Shown here: positions 7,714-63,555 of the stretch, piece after piece
Layout: each line of letters opens with the position of its first letter
Position numbering within the stretch: the stretch's first letter is position 1
Virus record (IMG/VR): IMGVR_UViG_3300031857_000007
DNA from: a virus
Lineage: Duplodnaviria > Caudoviricetes
Strand: one strand, 5' to 3'
Length of the DNA: 64,000 bases
Notes under the pieces: generated by a model
The model's input: only the letters and a program-made list of their open reading frames with translations
The model's database searches: none
What the model was told of the DNA's origin: nothing
Position numbers and translations under genes: made by a program

Positions 7714-7786
7714 AGCCCCCGACAAGACTTGAACTTGCGACAACCGCTTTACAAAAGCGGTGCTCTACCAGCTGAGCTACAAGGGC
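7714..7786 (-). tRNA. tRNA-Thr(UGU)
   Basis: GCCCTTGTAGCTCAGCTGGTAGAGC-ACCGCT-TT-TGT-AA-AGCGG...GTTCAAG...CGGGGGCT cloverleaf, 73 nt. Confidence 0.95.
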
Positions 7787-7788
7787 AA

Positions 7789-8058
7789 TTAATCGACAGG
7801 TAACATTTCAGGATTTTCTAGATCTAGTTCAAACATTAGAGGATGACATAGTTCATCAATTAAATAAAAAGATGATTTATATAAATCATCTGGTTCAAAC
7901 CTTCTTTCTTTATCTGCCAATTCTATGACTTCCAGATCGTATTGATAACTATCAGGAACATCATCAAAAGTAAATGGTATTTGATTTATGAAATACATTA
8001 GAACTATTTGTGCTCCTTTATTATACCAAACGTATCTGGCATCTATTCTGTATTTCAT
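7789..8058 (-). CDS. Hypothetical protein between tRNA genes
   Basis: ORF track, 89 aa, fills the gap between tRNA-Leu and tRNA-Thr. Confidence 0.65.
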   Translation of the reverse strand: MKYRIDARYVWYNKGAQIVLMYFINQIPFTFDDVPDSYQYDLEVIELADKERRFEPDDLYKSSFYLIDELCHPLMFELDLENPEMLPVD

Positions 8059-8107
8059 AGGAGAACCTCCTACTTTTTTATATTTAGAGATTGTTTAAAA
8101 CCTCTAA

Positions 8108-8191
8108 TAGGAACGGGGAGACTTGAACTCCCACGAGCAAATGCCCAACTGATTTTAAGTCAGGTGCGTCTACCGATTCCGCCACGCTCCC
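8108..8191 (-). tRNA. tRNA-Leu(UAA)
   Basis: GGGAGCGTGGCGGAATCGGTAGACGC-ACCTGA-CT-TAA-AA-TCAG, long variable arm, GTTCAAG T-loop, 84 nt. Confidence 0.95.
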
Positions 8192-8199
8192 ATGTATTT

Positions 8200-8274
8200 T
8201 GGTAGGACTGCTGAGACTTGAACTCAGTTCACACCGTTATAAGCAGTGGGCCTTAACCCATAGGCGACAGTCCC
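8200..8274 (-). tRNA. tRNA-Ile(UAU) with encoded CCA
   Basis: GGGACTG...CACTG-CT-TAT-AA-CGGTG...GTTCAAG...CAGTCCT-A-CCA. Confidence 0.9.
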
Positions 8275-28507: not shown

Positions 28508-29197
28508 TTATTCAATAGTAATGGAAGGGGCGTCGGAACATTCAGAACAACCTTCACGAGTCCAACCAAGTGCTTCAGATACAGCAGGGAACTGACAGGT
28601 AAAAATACAACGAATCAATTCTGCAATCTCCATGTGTTCCTTCTGTGTACCGTGTGCAGACCGTAGATCAATGTAATGGATCCATGACCTTACAGAACCG
28701 GTCATATAGAGGCGTGTAGGCGTTGCTAGGGGCAGTACAAACCTTGCACACTCCTTTGCCACACCCTTCTCCAGAAGGCGATTGTAGACCCTCTGAGACT
28801 GCTCAAACAAAACGCGAATGTCTTCTAGTAAAGTAAGTTTCAAATAGTCTGGAAGATCATCAATTGAGTTTTGCCGATTCTTATTATCTTGCCTACGAAG
28901 TTCTGGGAGTGGAATACTACCACCAAGAAGATTTGCATCTGCATAACGCTGCGAAAATTCCTGATATGTAAAGCTCCTATGTCGGAGTATCTGTGCCGCA
29001 ATGCCTCTTGTCGTATTAATCTCAACAGTCATTGTTGCTTGTTCAAAAATACTCCAATGCTGATGTTGAATGCAGTATTTTAATAGTCCAGAAAATTTTT
29101 CATTATCTTGATTTGCGGGATTACTGACCCTAGCACAATATGCCATGTGCTTTTCTGCATCGGGAGTAACGCTAATGAGTTTAACTTCTGGTTTCAT
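28508..29197 (-). CDS. thyX: Flavin-dependent thymidylate synthase ThyX
   Basis: HWSIFEQ, QILRHRSFTYQEFSQRY, KECARFVLP, RSWIHYIDLR...TQKEH; start taken at MKPEV. Confidence 0.95.
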   Translation of the reverse strand: MKPEVKLISVTPDAEKHMAYCARVSNPANQDNEKFSGLLKYCIQHQHWSIFEQATMTVEINTTRGIAAQILRHRSFTYQEFSQRYADANLLGGSIPLPELRRQDNKNRQNSIDDLPDYLKLTLLEDIRVLFEQSQRVYNRLLEKGVAKECARFVLPLATPTRLYMTGSVRSWIHYIDLRSAHGTQKEHMEIAELIRCIFTCQFPAVSEALGWTREGCSECSDAPSITIE

Positions 29198-29207
29198 AAA
29201 CTCAAAT

Positions 29208-29375
29208 TCAGTCTGGATATCCATCATCGTCATAAAATACCTCGTCGTAATCTTCTATGTAAGGGGCAATTCTTTCGTACTTATATGAATCAACATCAGA
29301 GTAAACTTCTGATTTGAGACATTCTACTAAGGACTCAAGATTTTTTACTATAAGTTTGAGTTTTTCTTTATCCAT
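29208..29375 (-). CDS. Small acidic hypothetical protein (55 aa)
   Basis: Hand translation MDKEKLKLIVKNLESLVECLKSEVYSD... Confidence 0.6.
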   Translation of the reverse strand: MDKEKLKLIVKNLESLVECLKSEVYSDVDSYKYERIAPYIEDYDEVFYDDDGYPD

Positions 29376-29396: not shown

Positions 29397-29425
29397 ATTA
29401 TAGGTAAAAAAAAGAGGGGAGTCAA
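29397..29425 (-). promoter_or_regulatory. Sigma70-type promoter overlapping the upstream terminator
   Basis: TTGACT-N17-TATAAT. Confidence 0.75.
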
Positions 29426-29434
29426 GTCCCCTCT
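29406..29434 (-). terminator. Intrinsic terminator after the DUF4278 unit
   Basis: GAGGGGA-CTTGAC-TCCCCTC followed by T8. Confidence 0.8.
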
Positions 29435-29438
29435 CACA

Positions 29439-29540
29439 TTAAGCAATCTGTGGTTGCTTTGCCATATTAATCTGAGCAGCATGGAGAAGTTTTTCCCTCT
29501 TTGCTTTTTTCTTGAGATAACGAACGAAGTAAGTATTCAT
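29439..29540 (-). CDS. Small basic peptide (33 aa)
   Basis: MNTYFVRYLKKKAKREKLLHAAQINMAKQPQIA; ATGA overlap with DUF4278 and a GGAGG SD. Confidence 0.55.
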   Translation of the reverse strand: MNTYFVRYLKKKAKREKLLHAAQINMAKQPQIA

Positions 29541-29701
29541 TTTACACCTCCCTTGGATTTTTCCATATGGAGTTTGTTTCCATTTTCATCAACATAAAAC
29601 AAAACGCCACGATAGATTTCTACGTGCGCTGGTGGTCTTACATTTTGATTTGGGCGATCTGTAGTGTCATATTCAACACCACGATAAACGACTTTAGACA
29701 T
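29537..29701 (-). CDS. DUF4278-family small protein (54 aa)
   Basis: MSKVVYRGVEY...IYRGV duplicated YRGV motif; AAGGAG SD; riboswitch upstream. Confidence 0.8.
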   Translation of the reverse strand: MSKVVYRGVEYDTTDRPNQNVRPPAHVEIYRGVLFYVDENGNKLHMEKSKGGVK

Positions 29702-29729
29702 TAGGGTTCTCCTTAATTGAAGTTAAAGA

Positions 29730-29829
29730 GCGTTCCTTCAGTCGGCGTTTGCGTCGGTTTCCCGATGAACGTTCCGTTCCGCGTCGGCTTACTTCCGTCC
29801 TATAGTACTTTAGTCATAGGATGAACGTT
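29730..29829 (-). ncRNA. Tandem glutamine riboswitch (glnA/Downstream-peptide family)
   Basis: Two units AACGTTCA-[hairpin]-CG(G/C)AA...GCCGAC...GAACG with P1 CGTTC/GAACG; unit 1 has CGGAAGTAAG, unit 2 has a TCGG-GAAA-CCGA tetraloop and ends GAAGGAACGC. Confidence 0.8.
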
Positions 29830-29837
29830 AGAGGATT

Positions 29838-29867
29838 ATTATACCTCTAGTTACAGTATATATGCAA
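29838..29867 (-). promoter_or_regulatory. Sigma70-type promoter for the riboswitch/DUF4278 unit
   Basis: TTGCAT-N18-TATAAT about 8 nt upstream of the first aptamer. Confidence 0.7.
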
Positions 29868-29874
29868 GCACTTT

Positions 29875-29890
29875 TGTAACTTTTGTTACA
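29875..29890. promoter_or_regulatory. NtcA-binding site
   Basis: TGTA-ACTTTTGT-TACA, an exact GTA-N8-TAC palindrome. Confidence 0.65.
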
Positions 29891-29892
29891 AT

Positions 29893-30219
29893 TTATCTTT
29901 CAATATAACTCAAGGTATGATTGGTAGCATAAAGTTGTTGAATTATTATATCACATCCAATTTTTGGATTACAATCTCCACAAGTATAAACATCTACTGC
30001 TGCCGTTCCTTCTTCTGGCCAAGTATGAATACTAATATGACTTTCGGATAACAAACACAAAACGGTCACTCCTTGAGGTTCAAACTTTTTTGAGATTGTC
30101 TGTACCACAGTAGCACCACTTGCAGATGCTGCGTTTTCTAACAAGTCAATAAGACAACGCTCGTCGTCCAAAAGAACAAACGAGCATCCATACAAGTTAA
30201 GTAGATAATGCTTACCCAT
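29893..30219 (-). CDS. speD: S-adenosylmethionine decarboxylase proenzyme (class 1B)
   Basis: FEPQGVT...LSESHISIHTWPE....VDVYTCG pyruvoyl self-cleavage motif. Confidence 0.9.
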   Translation of the reverse strand: MGKHYLLNLYGCSFVLLDDERCLIDLLENAASASGATVVQTISKKFEPQGVTVLCLLSESHISIHTWPEEGTAAVDVYTCGDCNPKIGCDIIIQQLYATNHTLSYIER

Positions 30220-37178: not shown

Positions 37179-37282
37179 GTAGTAAGACCATCAGGGAAAT
37201 GGTGGAGTTACTATTCCCCAGTCACCCTCAGACTGGGTATGAGAGACGTAATTTATACACCCCATAGGTCTCGGTTAATGGG
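37179..37282 (-). ncRNA. PhotoRC-II-like structured psbA 5' leader
   Basis: GAGAC/GTCTC pairing; hairpin CCCAGTC-TGAGGGT-GACTGGG and hairpin ACCAT-TTCCCTG-ATGGT whose loops are complementary (AGGG/CCCT). Confidence 0.7.
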
Positions 37283-37330
37283 TGTTTAACAATGTTAAGA
37301 TTTATTAGAAATCCGTAACATTTGTTTACC

Positions 37331-63146: not shown

Positions 63147-63555
63147 CTGTGACTCAGGCTCGCCACCAATTCTTTGACTGGAAATTGGAAACCAGGCGGG
63201 AGAGAGTCCCATCCGCACCACTTGCCTTTTGAAGGAATGGCAAGAAACCTAATAGGGTCATATTGACTCCACCACTTAGTTTTAGGAAACTAAGAAAAGT
63301 TGGGTTAACTTTGATATCTCGGTAATACCAAAGAATGCACATAAGAAAAGTACATCCCAAAGTTTAAGTTTAATAGCAAAAGGTACTGTGAGTAATCCTC
63401 CAACAACTTTTATCATTAAACCATATTTAAATTCTCCCCATAGCATAGTTTGATAACCAATTATGAGGAGAATGTTTCCAATCCACCGAAGTAAATCAGA
63501 TTTAGACATAAGGGGTTTTGCTCCCGACCAGTGCTGTTAAAGTCCATCCGTGACT
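63147..63555 (-). ncRNA. manA/wcaG-like multi-domain structured RNA, interrupted by an ORF
   Basis: Repeated pseudoknot-UGGYG-hairpin units (63147-63294) plus a 5' element ACGGATGGAC...CTGGTCGGG..CCCC (63511-63552); family name recalled from memory, not searched. Confidence 0.6.
63282..63509 (-). CDS. Small 2-3-TM membrane protein inside the structured RNA
   Basis: ORF track, 75 aa, hydrophobic; stop codon lies in the loop of the first RNA hairpin. Confidence 0.65.
   Translation of the reverse strand: MSKSDLLRWIGNILLIIGYQTMLWGEFKYGLMIKVVGGLLTVPFAIKLKLWDVLFLCAFFGITEISKLTQLFLVS

What the first reader, a model, noticed from the sequence alone, without database searches (positions are those of the whole stretch)
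29439..29890. Phage-encoded nitrogen-sensing module: NtcA box, promoter, tandem glutamine riboswitch, DUF4278 and a basic peptide
Seen: an exact GTA-N8-TAC palindrome (29875-29890), a second near-site (GTA-N8-TAT, about 29841-29854) overlapping the promoter spacer and -10, two tandem glnA-type aptamers, a strong SD, a 54-aa DUF4278 ORF coupled to a 33-aa basic ORF, and a terminator. Established: in cyanobacteria the glutamine-synthetase inactivating factor gene gifB is repressed by NtcA and activated through a glutamine riboswitch, and DUF4278 genes occur behind glutamine riboswitches. Inference: the phage reproduces this double-input logic (2-oxoglutarate via NtcA, glutamine via RNA) to tune host glutamine synthetase or nitrogen flow. 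The tandem aptamers could give a cooperative response.
Basis: partly seen in the sequence, partly recalled or inferred. Interest (0 to 1): 0.75.

Follow-up and report, generated by a model that had tools for sequence, protein, structure and literature searches.

The report
Cyanophage interlocked glutamine-riboswitch peptide cassette
A freshwater cyanobacterial virus carries a small stand-alone gene unit (a nitrogen-regulator-type DNA box, a promoter, a glutamine-sensing RNA built from two interlocked sensor cores, two tiny protein genes and a stop signal) that is shared by over a hundred related viruses, but what the two peptides do, and whether they touch glutamine synthetase, is still unknown.

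Summary
The cassette recurs in more than 120 cyanomyovirus contigs and in isolates such as S-PM2, P-SSM4, P-TIM68, Bellamy and S-CREM1. This scan had already met it on at least 14 other phage genomes. Three points change the reading. (1) The two "tandem aptamers" are not independent. Each alone scores below Rfam's cut-off (33.5 and 30.9 bits; cut-off 35), while a chimera of unit 1's 5' half and unit 2's 3' half scores 45.3. The long-range "linchpin" base of each unit pairs with the 3' end of the other unit: 96/96 and 94/96 distinct doublets, against 64% for side-by-side. (2) The GTA-N8-TAC box is not significant in the window alone but is strongly conserved in position (84/119 loci against 1.4% background). 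It lies upstream of the -35, unlike host gifB, where the box covers the -10. The sign of NtcA control is open. (3) ORF1 is a DUF4278-only protein lacking IF17's glutamine-synthetase-binding tail. ORF2 is a real gene homologous to host "Downstream-peptide" proteins behind Glutamine-II riboswitches, and shows no similarity to that tail. The regulatory logic is well supported; glutamine-synthetase inhibition is conjecture.

The parts
29875..29890 (.). NtcA-type palindrome TGTA-N8-TACA (core GTA 29889-29887, TAC 29878-29876), directly after the speD stop codon
   Evidence: Sequence. Positionally conserved: 84/119 loci against 1.4% background, half-sites invariant while N8 varies. It lies 8 nt upstream of the TTGNNT hexamer in 63/72 loci.
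29856..29867 (-). -35-like TTGCAT (29867-29862) followed by the conserved ATATA element
   Evidence: TTGACT, TTGCAT or TTGCCT is found in 67 of 77 loci with a distal box. TTGNNT-A(T/A)ATA is conserved in the alignments.
29841..29854 (-). Near-site GTA-N8-TAT overlapping the spacer and -10; probably chance
   Evidence: Present. The same spacing (27 nt) occurs in only 3/119 loci. It lacks the conserved final C of the NtcA consensus.
29829..29849 (-). Inverted repeat TAGAGG (29849-29844) / CCTCTA (29834-29829) whose loop holds the -10-like TATAAT (29843-29838)
   Evidence: Arms of 5 bp or more in 84% of 111 loci against 30% of shuffles; 48 distinct arm sequences; ends 0-4 nt before CGTTCA.
29774..29827 (-). 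Riboswitch unit 1: CGUUCA 29827-29822, P2a hairpin 29821-29798, junction ACG + linchpin G29795, AGUA E-loop half, GCCGAC, GGAACG 29780-29775, G29774
   Evidence: 33.5 bits alone, with the GAAG segment deleted. P2a pairs 1-4 are about 100% paired across 59 distinct hairpins, with compensatory changes.
29730..29771 (-). Riboswitch unit 2: CGUUCA 29771-29766, P2b 29765-29754, junction ACG + C29751, GCCGAC, UGAAG, GGAACG 29736-29731, linchpin C29730
   Evidence: 30.9 bits alone, with the GUA-P3 segment replaced. Chimera with unit 1 scores 45.3 bits. Cross-unit linchpins: G29795:C29730 and C29751:G29774.
29709..29730 (-). Expression platform: anti-SD CUCUUUAA (29730-29723) pairs with UUAAGGAG (29716-29709); its first base is linchpin C29730
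   Evidence: MFE fold. The helix is present in all window-type leaders. Same logic as proposed for Synechocystis gifB (PMC6212724) and seen in host gifB loci.
29537..29701 (-). ORF1, 54 aa, DUF4278-type with two YRG motifs
   Evidence: Pfam 21.2 bits. 25/25 relatives hit PF14105. Invariant Y6 R7 G8 Y11 R31 G32. AlphaFold2 gives a small beta sheet, pLDDT 73.
29439..29540 (-). ORF2, 33 aa basic peptide, ATGA overlap with ORF1; member of the host Downstream-peptide family
   Evidence: pN/pS 0.20-0.37 in frame against 0.9-2.7 in the other frames. 62 representative relatives. Natural fusions with YRG motifs. Host homologues lie behind RF01704.
29404..29435 (-). Intrinsic terminator: 9-bp stem (5 G-C pairs) and a T-run
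   Evidence: Equivalent hairpin plus T-run in S-PM2 and S-SRM01.

Best explanation
This is a self-contained, conserved cyanomyovirus mini-operon. A host-type promoter carries an NtcA-type box 8 nt upstream of its -35-like hexamer. It drives a leader in which two glutamine-aptamer cores are interlocked. Unit 1's CGUUC, P2 and junction strand close on unit 2's GAACG (outer site, essentially a canonical type-1 aptamer). Unit 1's GAACG and unit 2's CGUUC, P2 and junction strand form an inner, circularly permuted site. The base that completes the outer site (C29730) is also the first base of an 8-bp helix that buries the Shine-Dalgarno sequence. Glutamine binding is therefore expected to pull that base into the aptamer, loosen the helix and turn translation ON. 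ORF1 (DUF4278, two YRG beta-hairpins) and ORF2 (a 33-aa basic helix of the host Downstream-peptide family) are then made together through the ATGA overlap, and a terminator ends the unit. Shown here: the anatomy, its conservation, the interlocked pairing pattern, the reality of both genes, and their kinship with host proteins controlled by glutamine riboswitches. Inferred: glutamine binding, the ON direction, NtcA as the protein that binds the box and the sign of its effect, and any role of the peptides in host nitrogen metabolism.
For: Rfam: chimeric hit 45.3 bits; single units 33.5 and 30.9 bits with complementary deletions. Linchpin rule taken from the crystal structures (PMC6698751). Unit-1 junction base against the base after unit 2's GGAACG: 59 C:G and 37 G:C, no exception in 96 distinct doublets, Fisher 2e-27. 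The reciprocal pair: 92 C:G, 2 G:C, 2 C-A. Side-by-side pairing is possible in only 64%, and in neither pair of the window. The state switches at least 7 times on the ORF1 tree, at least 3 forced by supported branches. Unit 2 almost never occurs without unit 1 (99/119 exact; the rest are variants, truncations or chance hits). P2 covariation. The SD-sequestering helix starts at the linchpin C, as in the gifB model. Box conservation. ORF2 is coding. ORF1-ORF2 fusions occur in both orders. Host ORF2 homologues lie behind Glutamine-II riboswitches, 7 of 8 above the gathering score. All ORF1 relatives hit DUF4278.
Against: There is no experimental datum for this phage or its relatives: no ligand binding, no mapped transcription start, no NtcA binding. 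The P1 strands are invariant, so helix partners cannot be read from covariation; only the linchpins discriminate. The linchpin switches could partly reflect recombination of whole leaders rather than independent compensatory mutations. The inner site lacks an E-loop and would close on a 3-nt loop, so it may not bind ligand. The window's -35 is weak (3/6). The covarying inverted repeat around the -10 hints that transcription may start further upstream. The window's own ORF1 is below Pfam's cut-off.
Confidence: 0.72

Rival explanations
1. One reading: two independent tandem type-1 aptamers giving a cooperative or digital response, an NtcA-repressed promoter as in gifB, and two peptides that inactivate host glutamine synthetase.
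For: Tandem glutamine riboswitches are a recognised class (157 doublets; PMC9481103; PMC2864571). gifB is NtcA-repressed and riboswitch-activated (PMC6212724). The window has a GTA-N8-TAT site 27 nt from the aptamer, the spacing seen in host gifB (24-32 nt). 13/119 loci have a strict box 19 nt from the aptamer.
Against: Cross-unit linchpin covariation fits 96/96 and 94/96 doublets; side-by-side fits 64%, and neither pair in the window. Each unit alone is sub-threshold, with complementary defects. There is one expression platform only. The conserved box is upstream of the -35. The near-site is not conserved (3/119). DUF4278 is dispensable for IF17 activity (PMC6316151). ORF2 against the IF7-like tail gives hhalign probability below 1%.
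Confidence: 0.12
2. Only the outer site is a working glutamine aptamer. The inner CGUUC/GAACG pairing with P2b is a structured insertion in P3, a scaffold or a place for embedded genes, so the device has one ligand site and ordinary, non-cooperative dose-response.
For: Infernal aligns the whole region as one canonical aptamer with a 46-nt insert. The inner site has no AGUA/GAA E-loop and would close on a loop of about 3 nt. Relatives tolerate 170-220 nt inserts in P2a, P2b and the linker.
Against: The inner CGUUCA, GGAACG and junction ACG are as invariant as the outer ones. The inner linchpin can pair in 94/96 doublets, including two double-compensatory G:C cases. The glutamine pocket needs only the helix, the junction strand and the linchpin, without an E-loop, as in Glutamine-II (PMC6698751).
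Confidence: 0.25
3. The palindrome after speD is not an NtcA site but something else, such as an RNA hairpin at the 3' end of the speD message or the site of another dimeric protein.
For: In the window it is a perfect 7+7 palindrome that could fold. Its centre, about 50 nt upstream of the predicted start, fits neither the classical -41.5 activator position nor a repressor position. It is not enriched in the window.
Against: In relatives only GTA and TAC are invariant while the inner bases vary without keeping complementarity (for example GTATCACAAGTTAC), the signature of a protein site rather than a hairpin. The consensus matches the cyanobacterial NtcA motif. The box follows many different upstream genes, not only speD. 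NtcA sites are common in cyanomyovirus genomes (PMC3037559).
Confidence: 0.1

Closest known systems
gifB (IF17) promoter and leader of Synechocystis sp. PCC 6803 and other cyanobacteria (Klahn et al. 2018, PMC6212724)
   Same: GTA-N8-TAC box plus sigma-70-like promoter; type-1 glutamine aptamer; an anti-SD helix that begins at the linchpin C after GGAACG; downstream gene starting with DUF4278.
   Different: Host: a single canonical aptamer, the box over the -10 (24-32 nt from CGTTCA), and a 100-157 aa protein, most of them (about 22 of 30) ending in an IF7-like GS-binding tail. Phage: an interlocked double aptamer, the box upstream of the -35 (58-60 nt), a 54-aa DUF4278-only protein plus a separate 33-aa peptide.
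Glutamine-II (Downstream-peptide) riboswitch loci of marine picocyanobacteria, e.g. Prochlorococcus PMM1846/yfr6 (RF01704; PMC2864571; PMC6316151)
   Same: Small proteins under glutamine-riboswitch control. ORF2 is homologous to the peptides encoded there, and some host genes fuse that module to YRG motifs. An NtcA motif is reported at PMM1846.
   Different: The host uses a single pseudoknot-type aptamer. The phage leader scores only 13-14 bits against RF01704 and keeps type-1 features (AGUA...GAA, GGAACGC).
Tandem glutamine-I riboswitches as catalogued by Sherlock et al. 2022 (PMC9481103) and Weinberg et al. 2010 (PMC2864571)
   Same: Two aptamer-like cores head to tail in one leader. Probably the same objects, since many catalogued doublets come from marine metagenomes.
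   Different: They are described as pseudo-cooperative arrays of separate riboswitches. Here the data indicate one expression platform and reciprocal long-range pairs between the units. I found no description of that, but could not read Ames and Breaker 2011.
glnA RNA annotated in cyanophage genomes (Rfam RF01739; S-CREM1, PMC9964418)
   Same: The same element: S-CREM1 annotates a 99-nt glnA hit of 44.0 bits, the same chimeric alignment.
   Different: Those reports list the RNA only. They do not describe the box, the doublet architecture, the coupled peptide gene or the host kinship of ORF2.

Membership tests
Glutamine-I riboswitch (glnA RNA, RF01739) | Covariance-model score at or above the gathering threshold (35 bits) | tested here: met
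   45.3 bits for 29829-29727, but only as a chimera of unit 1's 5' half and unit 2's 3' half. Single units score 33.5 and 30.9 bits, below threshold.
Glutamine-I riboswitch (glnA RNA, RF01739) | P1 helix CGUUC/GAACG and a variable P2 hairpin supported by covariation | tested here: met
   Both strands are present twice and invariant. P2a and P2b show compensatory changes across 59 and 30 distinct hairpins.
Glutamine-I riboswitch (glnA RNA, RF01739) | E-loop (AGUA opposite GAA) flanking P3 | tested here: inconclusive
   AGUA occurs only in unit 1 and the matching GAAG only in unit 2, so a full E-loop is available only across units. 18 relatives have UAAAG instead of UGAAG.
Glutamine-I riboswitch (glnA RNA, RF01739) | Long-range linchpin pair between the junction base after ACG and the base after GGAACG (G23:C60) | tested here: met
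   Met across units only: 96/96 and 94/96 against 64% within units. Window: G29795:C29730 and C29751:G29774.
Glutamine-I riboswitch (glnA RNA, RF01739) | Selective binding of L-glutamine | not testable with these tools
   Needs in-line probing or ITC.
Tandem (pseudo-cooperative) riboswitch array | Each unit is a complete aptamer able to fold on its own, usually with its own expression platform | tested here: not met
   Complementary defects, cross-unit linchpins, and a single SD-sequestering helix after unit 2.
NtcA-binding site | GTA-N8-TAC palindrome conserved in position | tested here: met
   84/119 loci, half-sites invariant, N8 variable.
NtcA-binding site | Position typical of activation (centre about -41.5, replacing the -35) or of repression (over the -10 or start site, as in gifA/gifB) | tested here: not met
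   With the predicted promoter the centre is about -50, 8 nt upstream of the -35-like hexamer. Host gifB boxes lie over the -10. The transcription start is not mapped, so the geometry is provisional.
NtcA-binding site | 2-oxoglutarate-dependent binding of NtcA | not testable with these tools
   Needs EMSA or footprinting.
DUF4278 (PF14105) | Pfam score above the gathering threshold; two YRG-x-x-Y motifs | tested here: inconclusive
   The window protein scores 21.2 bits against a 25.3 cut-off. All 25 relatives match at E of 0.01 or better, best 4.2e-7. The YRG motifs are invariant. I accept membership at family level.
GS-inactivating factor IF17 / IF7 | IF7-like C-terminal module (KAR.LMM...KNRQQ.ML.R...E.GL) that binds glutamine synthetase | tested here: not met
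   ORF1 ends shortly after the second YRG motif. The ORF2 family against the IF7-like tails of 19 host IF17 proteins gives hhalign probability 0.15%, and 0.33% against the second tail set. No PDB relative was found.
Downstream-peptide proteins of picocyanobacteria | Short protein with the MN.L..I(R/K)....(R/K)LH.AQL module encoded directly behind a Glutamine-II riboswitch | tested here: met
   The ORF2 profile hits 14/401 cyanobacterial genomes. All 8 loci examined have an RF01704 match immediately upstream, 7 above the gathering score. In the phage the module lies behind a type-1-like doublet instead.

The most novel reading that the evidence does not exclude
The phage leader is a previously undescribed riboswitch architecture: two glutamine pockets built from reciprocally exchanged strands of two aptamer cores, so that neither can fold without the other. 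This would give an obligately cooperative, switch-like reading of host glutamine. It controls a pair of peptides, one DUF4278 and one Downstream-peptide type, that act together on a host nitrogen-metabolism target during infection.
Probability: 0.35. Interest if true: 0.8.

Novelty: new variant of a known kind. Interest (0 to 1): 0.62.

Why it matters
Glutamine riboswitches, their tandem occurrence, their presence in cyanophages and NtcA sites in cyanophage genomes are all published. Three things appear to be new. First, the phage doublet is one interlocked device, which bears on how tandem riboswitches are classified and on how cooperativity can arise in RNA. Second, phages pair a DUF4278 protein with a member of the host Downstream-peptide family. 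This links two sets of orphan small proteins whose role in picocyanobacteria is an open question (PMC6316151). Third, the phage promoter geometry differs from host gifB, so the phage may read the 2-oxoglutarate signal with a different sign. Cultured phage-host pairs that carry the cassette (S-PM2 with WH7803, P-SSM4 with NATL2A, S-CREM1 with CB0101) make all of this directly testable.

Tried and rejected
1. Split-IF17 idea (ORF1 as the DUF4278 half, ORF2 as the IF7-like GS-binding half): rejected. hhalign of the ORF2 family against host IF17 tails gives probability below 1%.
2. PDB sequence searches with ORF2, its profile and the ORF1 profile: nothing meaningful. Foldseek of the ORF1 model: no match at E of 0.001 or better.
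3. NCBIfam scan of the ORF2 family: nothing.
4. 'Longer' relatives of ORF1 turned out to be read-through gene calls across embedded ORF, aptamer and DUF4278, not IF17.
5. Class II NtcA activation geometry (box centre at -41.5): no -10-like hexamer at the required 22-nt spacing (reading).
6. Covariation in the P1 strands to decide helix partners: the strands are invariant.
7. RNA evidence for the transcription start: no RNA holder listed; read laying not used. No open paper with cyanomyovirus start sites found.
9. Phage unit-1 signature in 401 cyanobacterial genomes: only 2-mismatch hits, which are a MiaB-like coding motif and a coding 42-nt repeat. Not found in those searched.
11. Ames and Breaker 2011 could not be read, so I cannot exclude that it describes the doublet architecture.

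Full report
**What the window is.** The window is a T4-like cyanomyovirus. It carries PhotoRC-II and wcaG RNAs and three tRNAs. speD lies at 29893-30219 and thyX at 28508-29233 on the minus strand. Its nearest isolates are Kyanoviridae. The only runs listed for the stretch come from a lake-water metagenome study. No whole genome is held for the window.

**Observation.**
- TGTA-N8-TACA at 29890-29875, directly after the speD stop.
- TTGCAT (29867-29862), an 18-nt spacer and TATAAT (29843-29838).
- The near-site GTA-N8-TAT at 29854-29841.
- Two units that start with CGTTCA: 29827-29774 and 29771-29730.
- AAGGAG, then ORF1 (54 aa, 29701-29537).
- ORF2 (33 aa, 29540-29439), overlapping ORF1 by ATGA.
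- A 9-bp terminator stem (29435-29412) with a T-run.

Rfam reports a single Glutamine (RF01739) hit of 45.3 bits over 29829-29727, aligned as one aptamer with a 46-nt insert.

**Conservation.** The same order (box, promoter, two units, SD, DUF4278 gene, often a tiny coupled ORF, terminator) is found in S-PM2, S-SRM01, Bellamy, S-CREM1, DSL-LC02/03, P-TIM68 and S-SCSM1. It also occurs in more than 120 IMG/VR contigs and in further isolates such as ACG-2014f and P-SSM4. Earlier notes of this scan record it on at least 14 other genomes. It follows various upstream genes, so it is a mobile, self-contained unit.

**The DNA box.** Inside the window GTA-N8-TAC is no more frequent than chance: 11 found against 9.3 expected, and 3 against 1.45 for the 16-mer. 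The case rests on comparison. In 119 non-identical loci a strict box starts 36-66 nt (mode 58-60) upstream of unit 1 in 84, and a GT-N10-AC form in 97. The background expectation is 1.4%. GTA and TAC are invariant while the inner eight bases vary without staying complementary, which points to a protein site rather than a hairpin.

The box lies 8 nt upstream of a TTGACT, TTGCAT or TTGCCT hexamer in 63 of 72 loci. I calibrated this against hosts. In 30 strong DUF4278 (gifB-type) loci drawn from 301 cyanobacterial genomes, 24 carry a single CGTTCA aptamer core. In the 18 of those with a strict box upstream of it, the box lies 24-32 nt from CGTTCA, downstream of a TTGACA -35 and so over the -10. 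That is the published repressor arrangement (PMC6212724).

The phage therefore does not copy that geometry. With the predicted promoter its box is centred near -50, which is neither the classical -41.5 activator position nor a repressor position. The window's near-site does sit at a host-like 27 nt, but that arrangement occurs in only 3 of 119 loci. A strict second box 19 nt from the aptamer occurs in 13.

A further complication is that the -10-like hexamer lies in the loop of an inverted repeat whose arms covary. Arms of 5 bp or more occur in 84% of loci against 30% of shuffles, with 48 distinct arm sequences. If this is an RNA hairpin, transcription starts further upstream and the box would sit near -33. 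No start-site data were found. The sign of NtcA control is open.

**The RNA.** Scanned alone, unit 1 scores 33.5 bits with the GAAG segment missing, and unit 2 scores 30.9 bits with the GUA-P3 segment replaced. Relatives behave the same way, at 28.9-34.5 bits. The defects are complementary, which is why the chimeric alignment scores 45.3. The P2 hairpins of both units are well supported by compensatory changes. The P1 strands never vary, so they cannot show which strand pairs with which.

The crystal structures supply a test (PMC6698751). The glutamine pocket is the CGUUC:GAACG helix with the junction strand in its groove. It is capped by a long-range pair between the base after the junction ACG and the base after GGAACG (G23:C60 in type 1, C19:G41 in type 2). 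In 96 non-identical phage doublets:
- The unit-1 junction base pairs with the base after unit 2's GGAACG in all 96 (59 C:G, 37 G:C; Fisher 2e-27).
- The unit-2 junction base pairs with the base after unit 1's GGAACG in 94, including two double-compensatory G:C cases.
- Within-unit pairing is possible in only 64%, and in neither pair of the window, which has G/G and C/C.

On an ORF1 tree the state changes at least 7 times, and at least 3 changes are forced by supported branches. Recombination of whole leaders could account for some of these changes. Unit 2 is practically never found without unit 1.

I therefore read the leader as one interlocked device. The outer site has canonical connectivity. 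The inner site is circularly permuted and is closed by the 2-5 nt linker. Whether the inner site binds ligand cannot be told from sequence.

**Expression platform.** In the window C29730, the outer linchpin base, is the first base of CUCUUUAA (29730-29723). This pairs with UUAAGGAG (29716-29709) and buries the SD. That helix is present in all leaders of the window's type. Marine relatives instead pair the aptamer's GAAGGAA with a U-rich tract next to the SD. Host gifB leaders have the same design (GGAACG-CGCCUC with GGAGGCG). This is the mechanism Klahn et al. postulate for the ON switch.

**The proteins.** ORF1 is below Pfam's cut-off on its own (21.2 against 25.3 bits). However, all 25 aligned relatives hit DUF4278, and two YRG motifs are invariant. 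The model is a small beta sheet (pLDDT 73) with no fold match.

ORF2 is a real gene. In its own frame pN/pS is 0.20-0.37, against 0.9-2.7 in the other frames. It is coupled to ORF1 in 27 of 86 distinct ORF1/ORF2 combinations; 12 others carry a hydrophobic peptide instead. The family has 62 representatives among 1.84 billion proteins.

The ORF2 module and the YRG motif occur fused in both orders:
- S-CREM1 ORF1 and L105.
- P0103, which has two copies of module plus YRG.
- A host gene, L253.

A six-frame search of 401 cyanobacterial genomes finds the module in 14 small genomes. All eight loci examined lie directly behind a Glutamine-II (Downstream-peptide) riboswitch, seven of them above the gathering score. 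ORF2 is thus the phage counterpart of the peptides that gave that riboswitch its name.

**Glutamine synthetase (GS).** DUF4278 is the N-terminal part of IF17 and is dispensable for GS inactivation. The DUF4278-only proteins of picocyanobacteria lack the C-terminal residues needed to bind GS, and their role is unsettled (PMC6212724; PMC6316151). I tested whether ORF2 supplies that missing tail. Profile comparison with the IF7-like tails of 19 host IF17 proteins gives a probability of 0.15%. There is therefore no homology-based support for GS inhibition. It remains possible, but it is conjecture.

**What is known and what is not.** Already published:
- Glutamine riboswitches in T4-like cyanophages (PMC9964418, PMC9602691).
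- Tandem glutamine riboswitches (PMC2864571, PMC9481103).
- NtcA sites in cyanomyoviruses (PMC3037559).
- The gifB two-input logic (PMC6212724).

In the papers I could read, I did not find:
- The interlocked architecture.
- The fixed distal position of the box in this cassette.
- The kinship of ORF2 with the Downstream-peptide family.

The phage unit-1 signature was not found in 401 cyanobacterial genomes; the 2-mismatch hits were coding coincidences.

**Verdict.** This is a new variant of a known kind, of moderate-to-good interest. That interest is mainly for RNA biology (the interlocked double aptamer) and for the open question of what glutamine-controlled micro-proteins do.

Noticed in passing
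L009-L128 (e.g. L034, L035, L042, L078 for unit 1; L001 1066-1233, L014, L005, L007 for unit 2); window 29798-29821: In many relatives the P2 hairpin of unit 1 and/or unit 2 encloses a complete 50-70 codon ORF. Its ATG sits in the 5' strand of P2 (CGTTCATCC-T-ATG). Its end runs up to or through the conserved 3' half of the aptamer, while the basal P2 pairs are kept. The window's own P2a (starting TCCTATGACTAAAG, ending ATAGGA) looks like a deletion remnant of the 'MTKALLLLAWVPLL...' embedded gene: the first 20 nt and the last 9 nt match those loci.
   Followed up: partly
window 29208-29375 (-) and 29397-29425: A 55-aa acidic ORF (C-terminus ...DDDGYPD) follows the cassette. It has its own near-consensus promoter (TTGACT, 17 nt, TATAAT; 11/12) that overlaps the cassette's terminator loop. 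Homologues with the same C-terminal motif follow the cassette in S-PM2, S-SRM01 and several contigs (L074, L118).
   Followed up: no
L063 and L300 (linker between the two units): The 2-5 nt linker between unit 1's GGAACGG and unit 2's CGTTCA is replaced by a longer insertion: about 45 nt in L300 and a much longer, coding-looking stretch in L063. All three loop-like positions of the interlocked fold (P2a, linker, P2b) therefore tolerate insertions.
   Followed up: no
13 of 119 loci, e.g. L013, L016, L039, L046, L051, L052, L059: A second strict GTA-N8-TAC (GTATGCTAACATAC and variants) lies 19 nt from the aptamer. It coincides with the inverted repeat around the -10, so some lineages have a distal and a proximal NtcA-type box.
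   Followed up: partly
host loci L278, L286, L288, L290-L295: A second class of cyanobacterial DUF4278 proteins (125-142 aa) ends in a different conserved helix (...HL.NIRRNLE.RL.VA...G...LV.LL) instead of the IF7-like tail. These mostly lack a riboswitch upstream.
   Followed up: no
literature, PMC7885011: In Synechococcus WH7803 infected by a podovirus, a host DUF4278 gene and the adjacent hypothetical gene are co-induced early (2.63 and 2.55 in the paper's expression table). This echoes the two-gene layout of the phage cassette.
   Followed up: no
window 37203-37297, 63152-63252, 7714-8274: PhotoRC-II RNA (86 bits), wcaG RNA (98 bits) and three tRNA genes, all on the minus strand. These are standard cyanomyovirus non-coding RNAs.
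   Followed up: no
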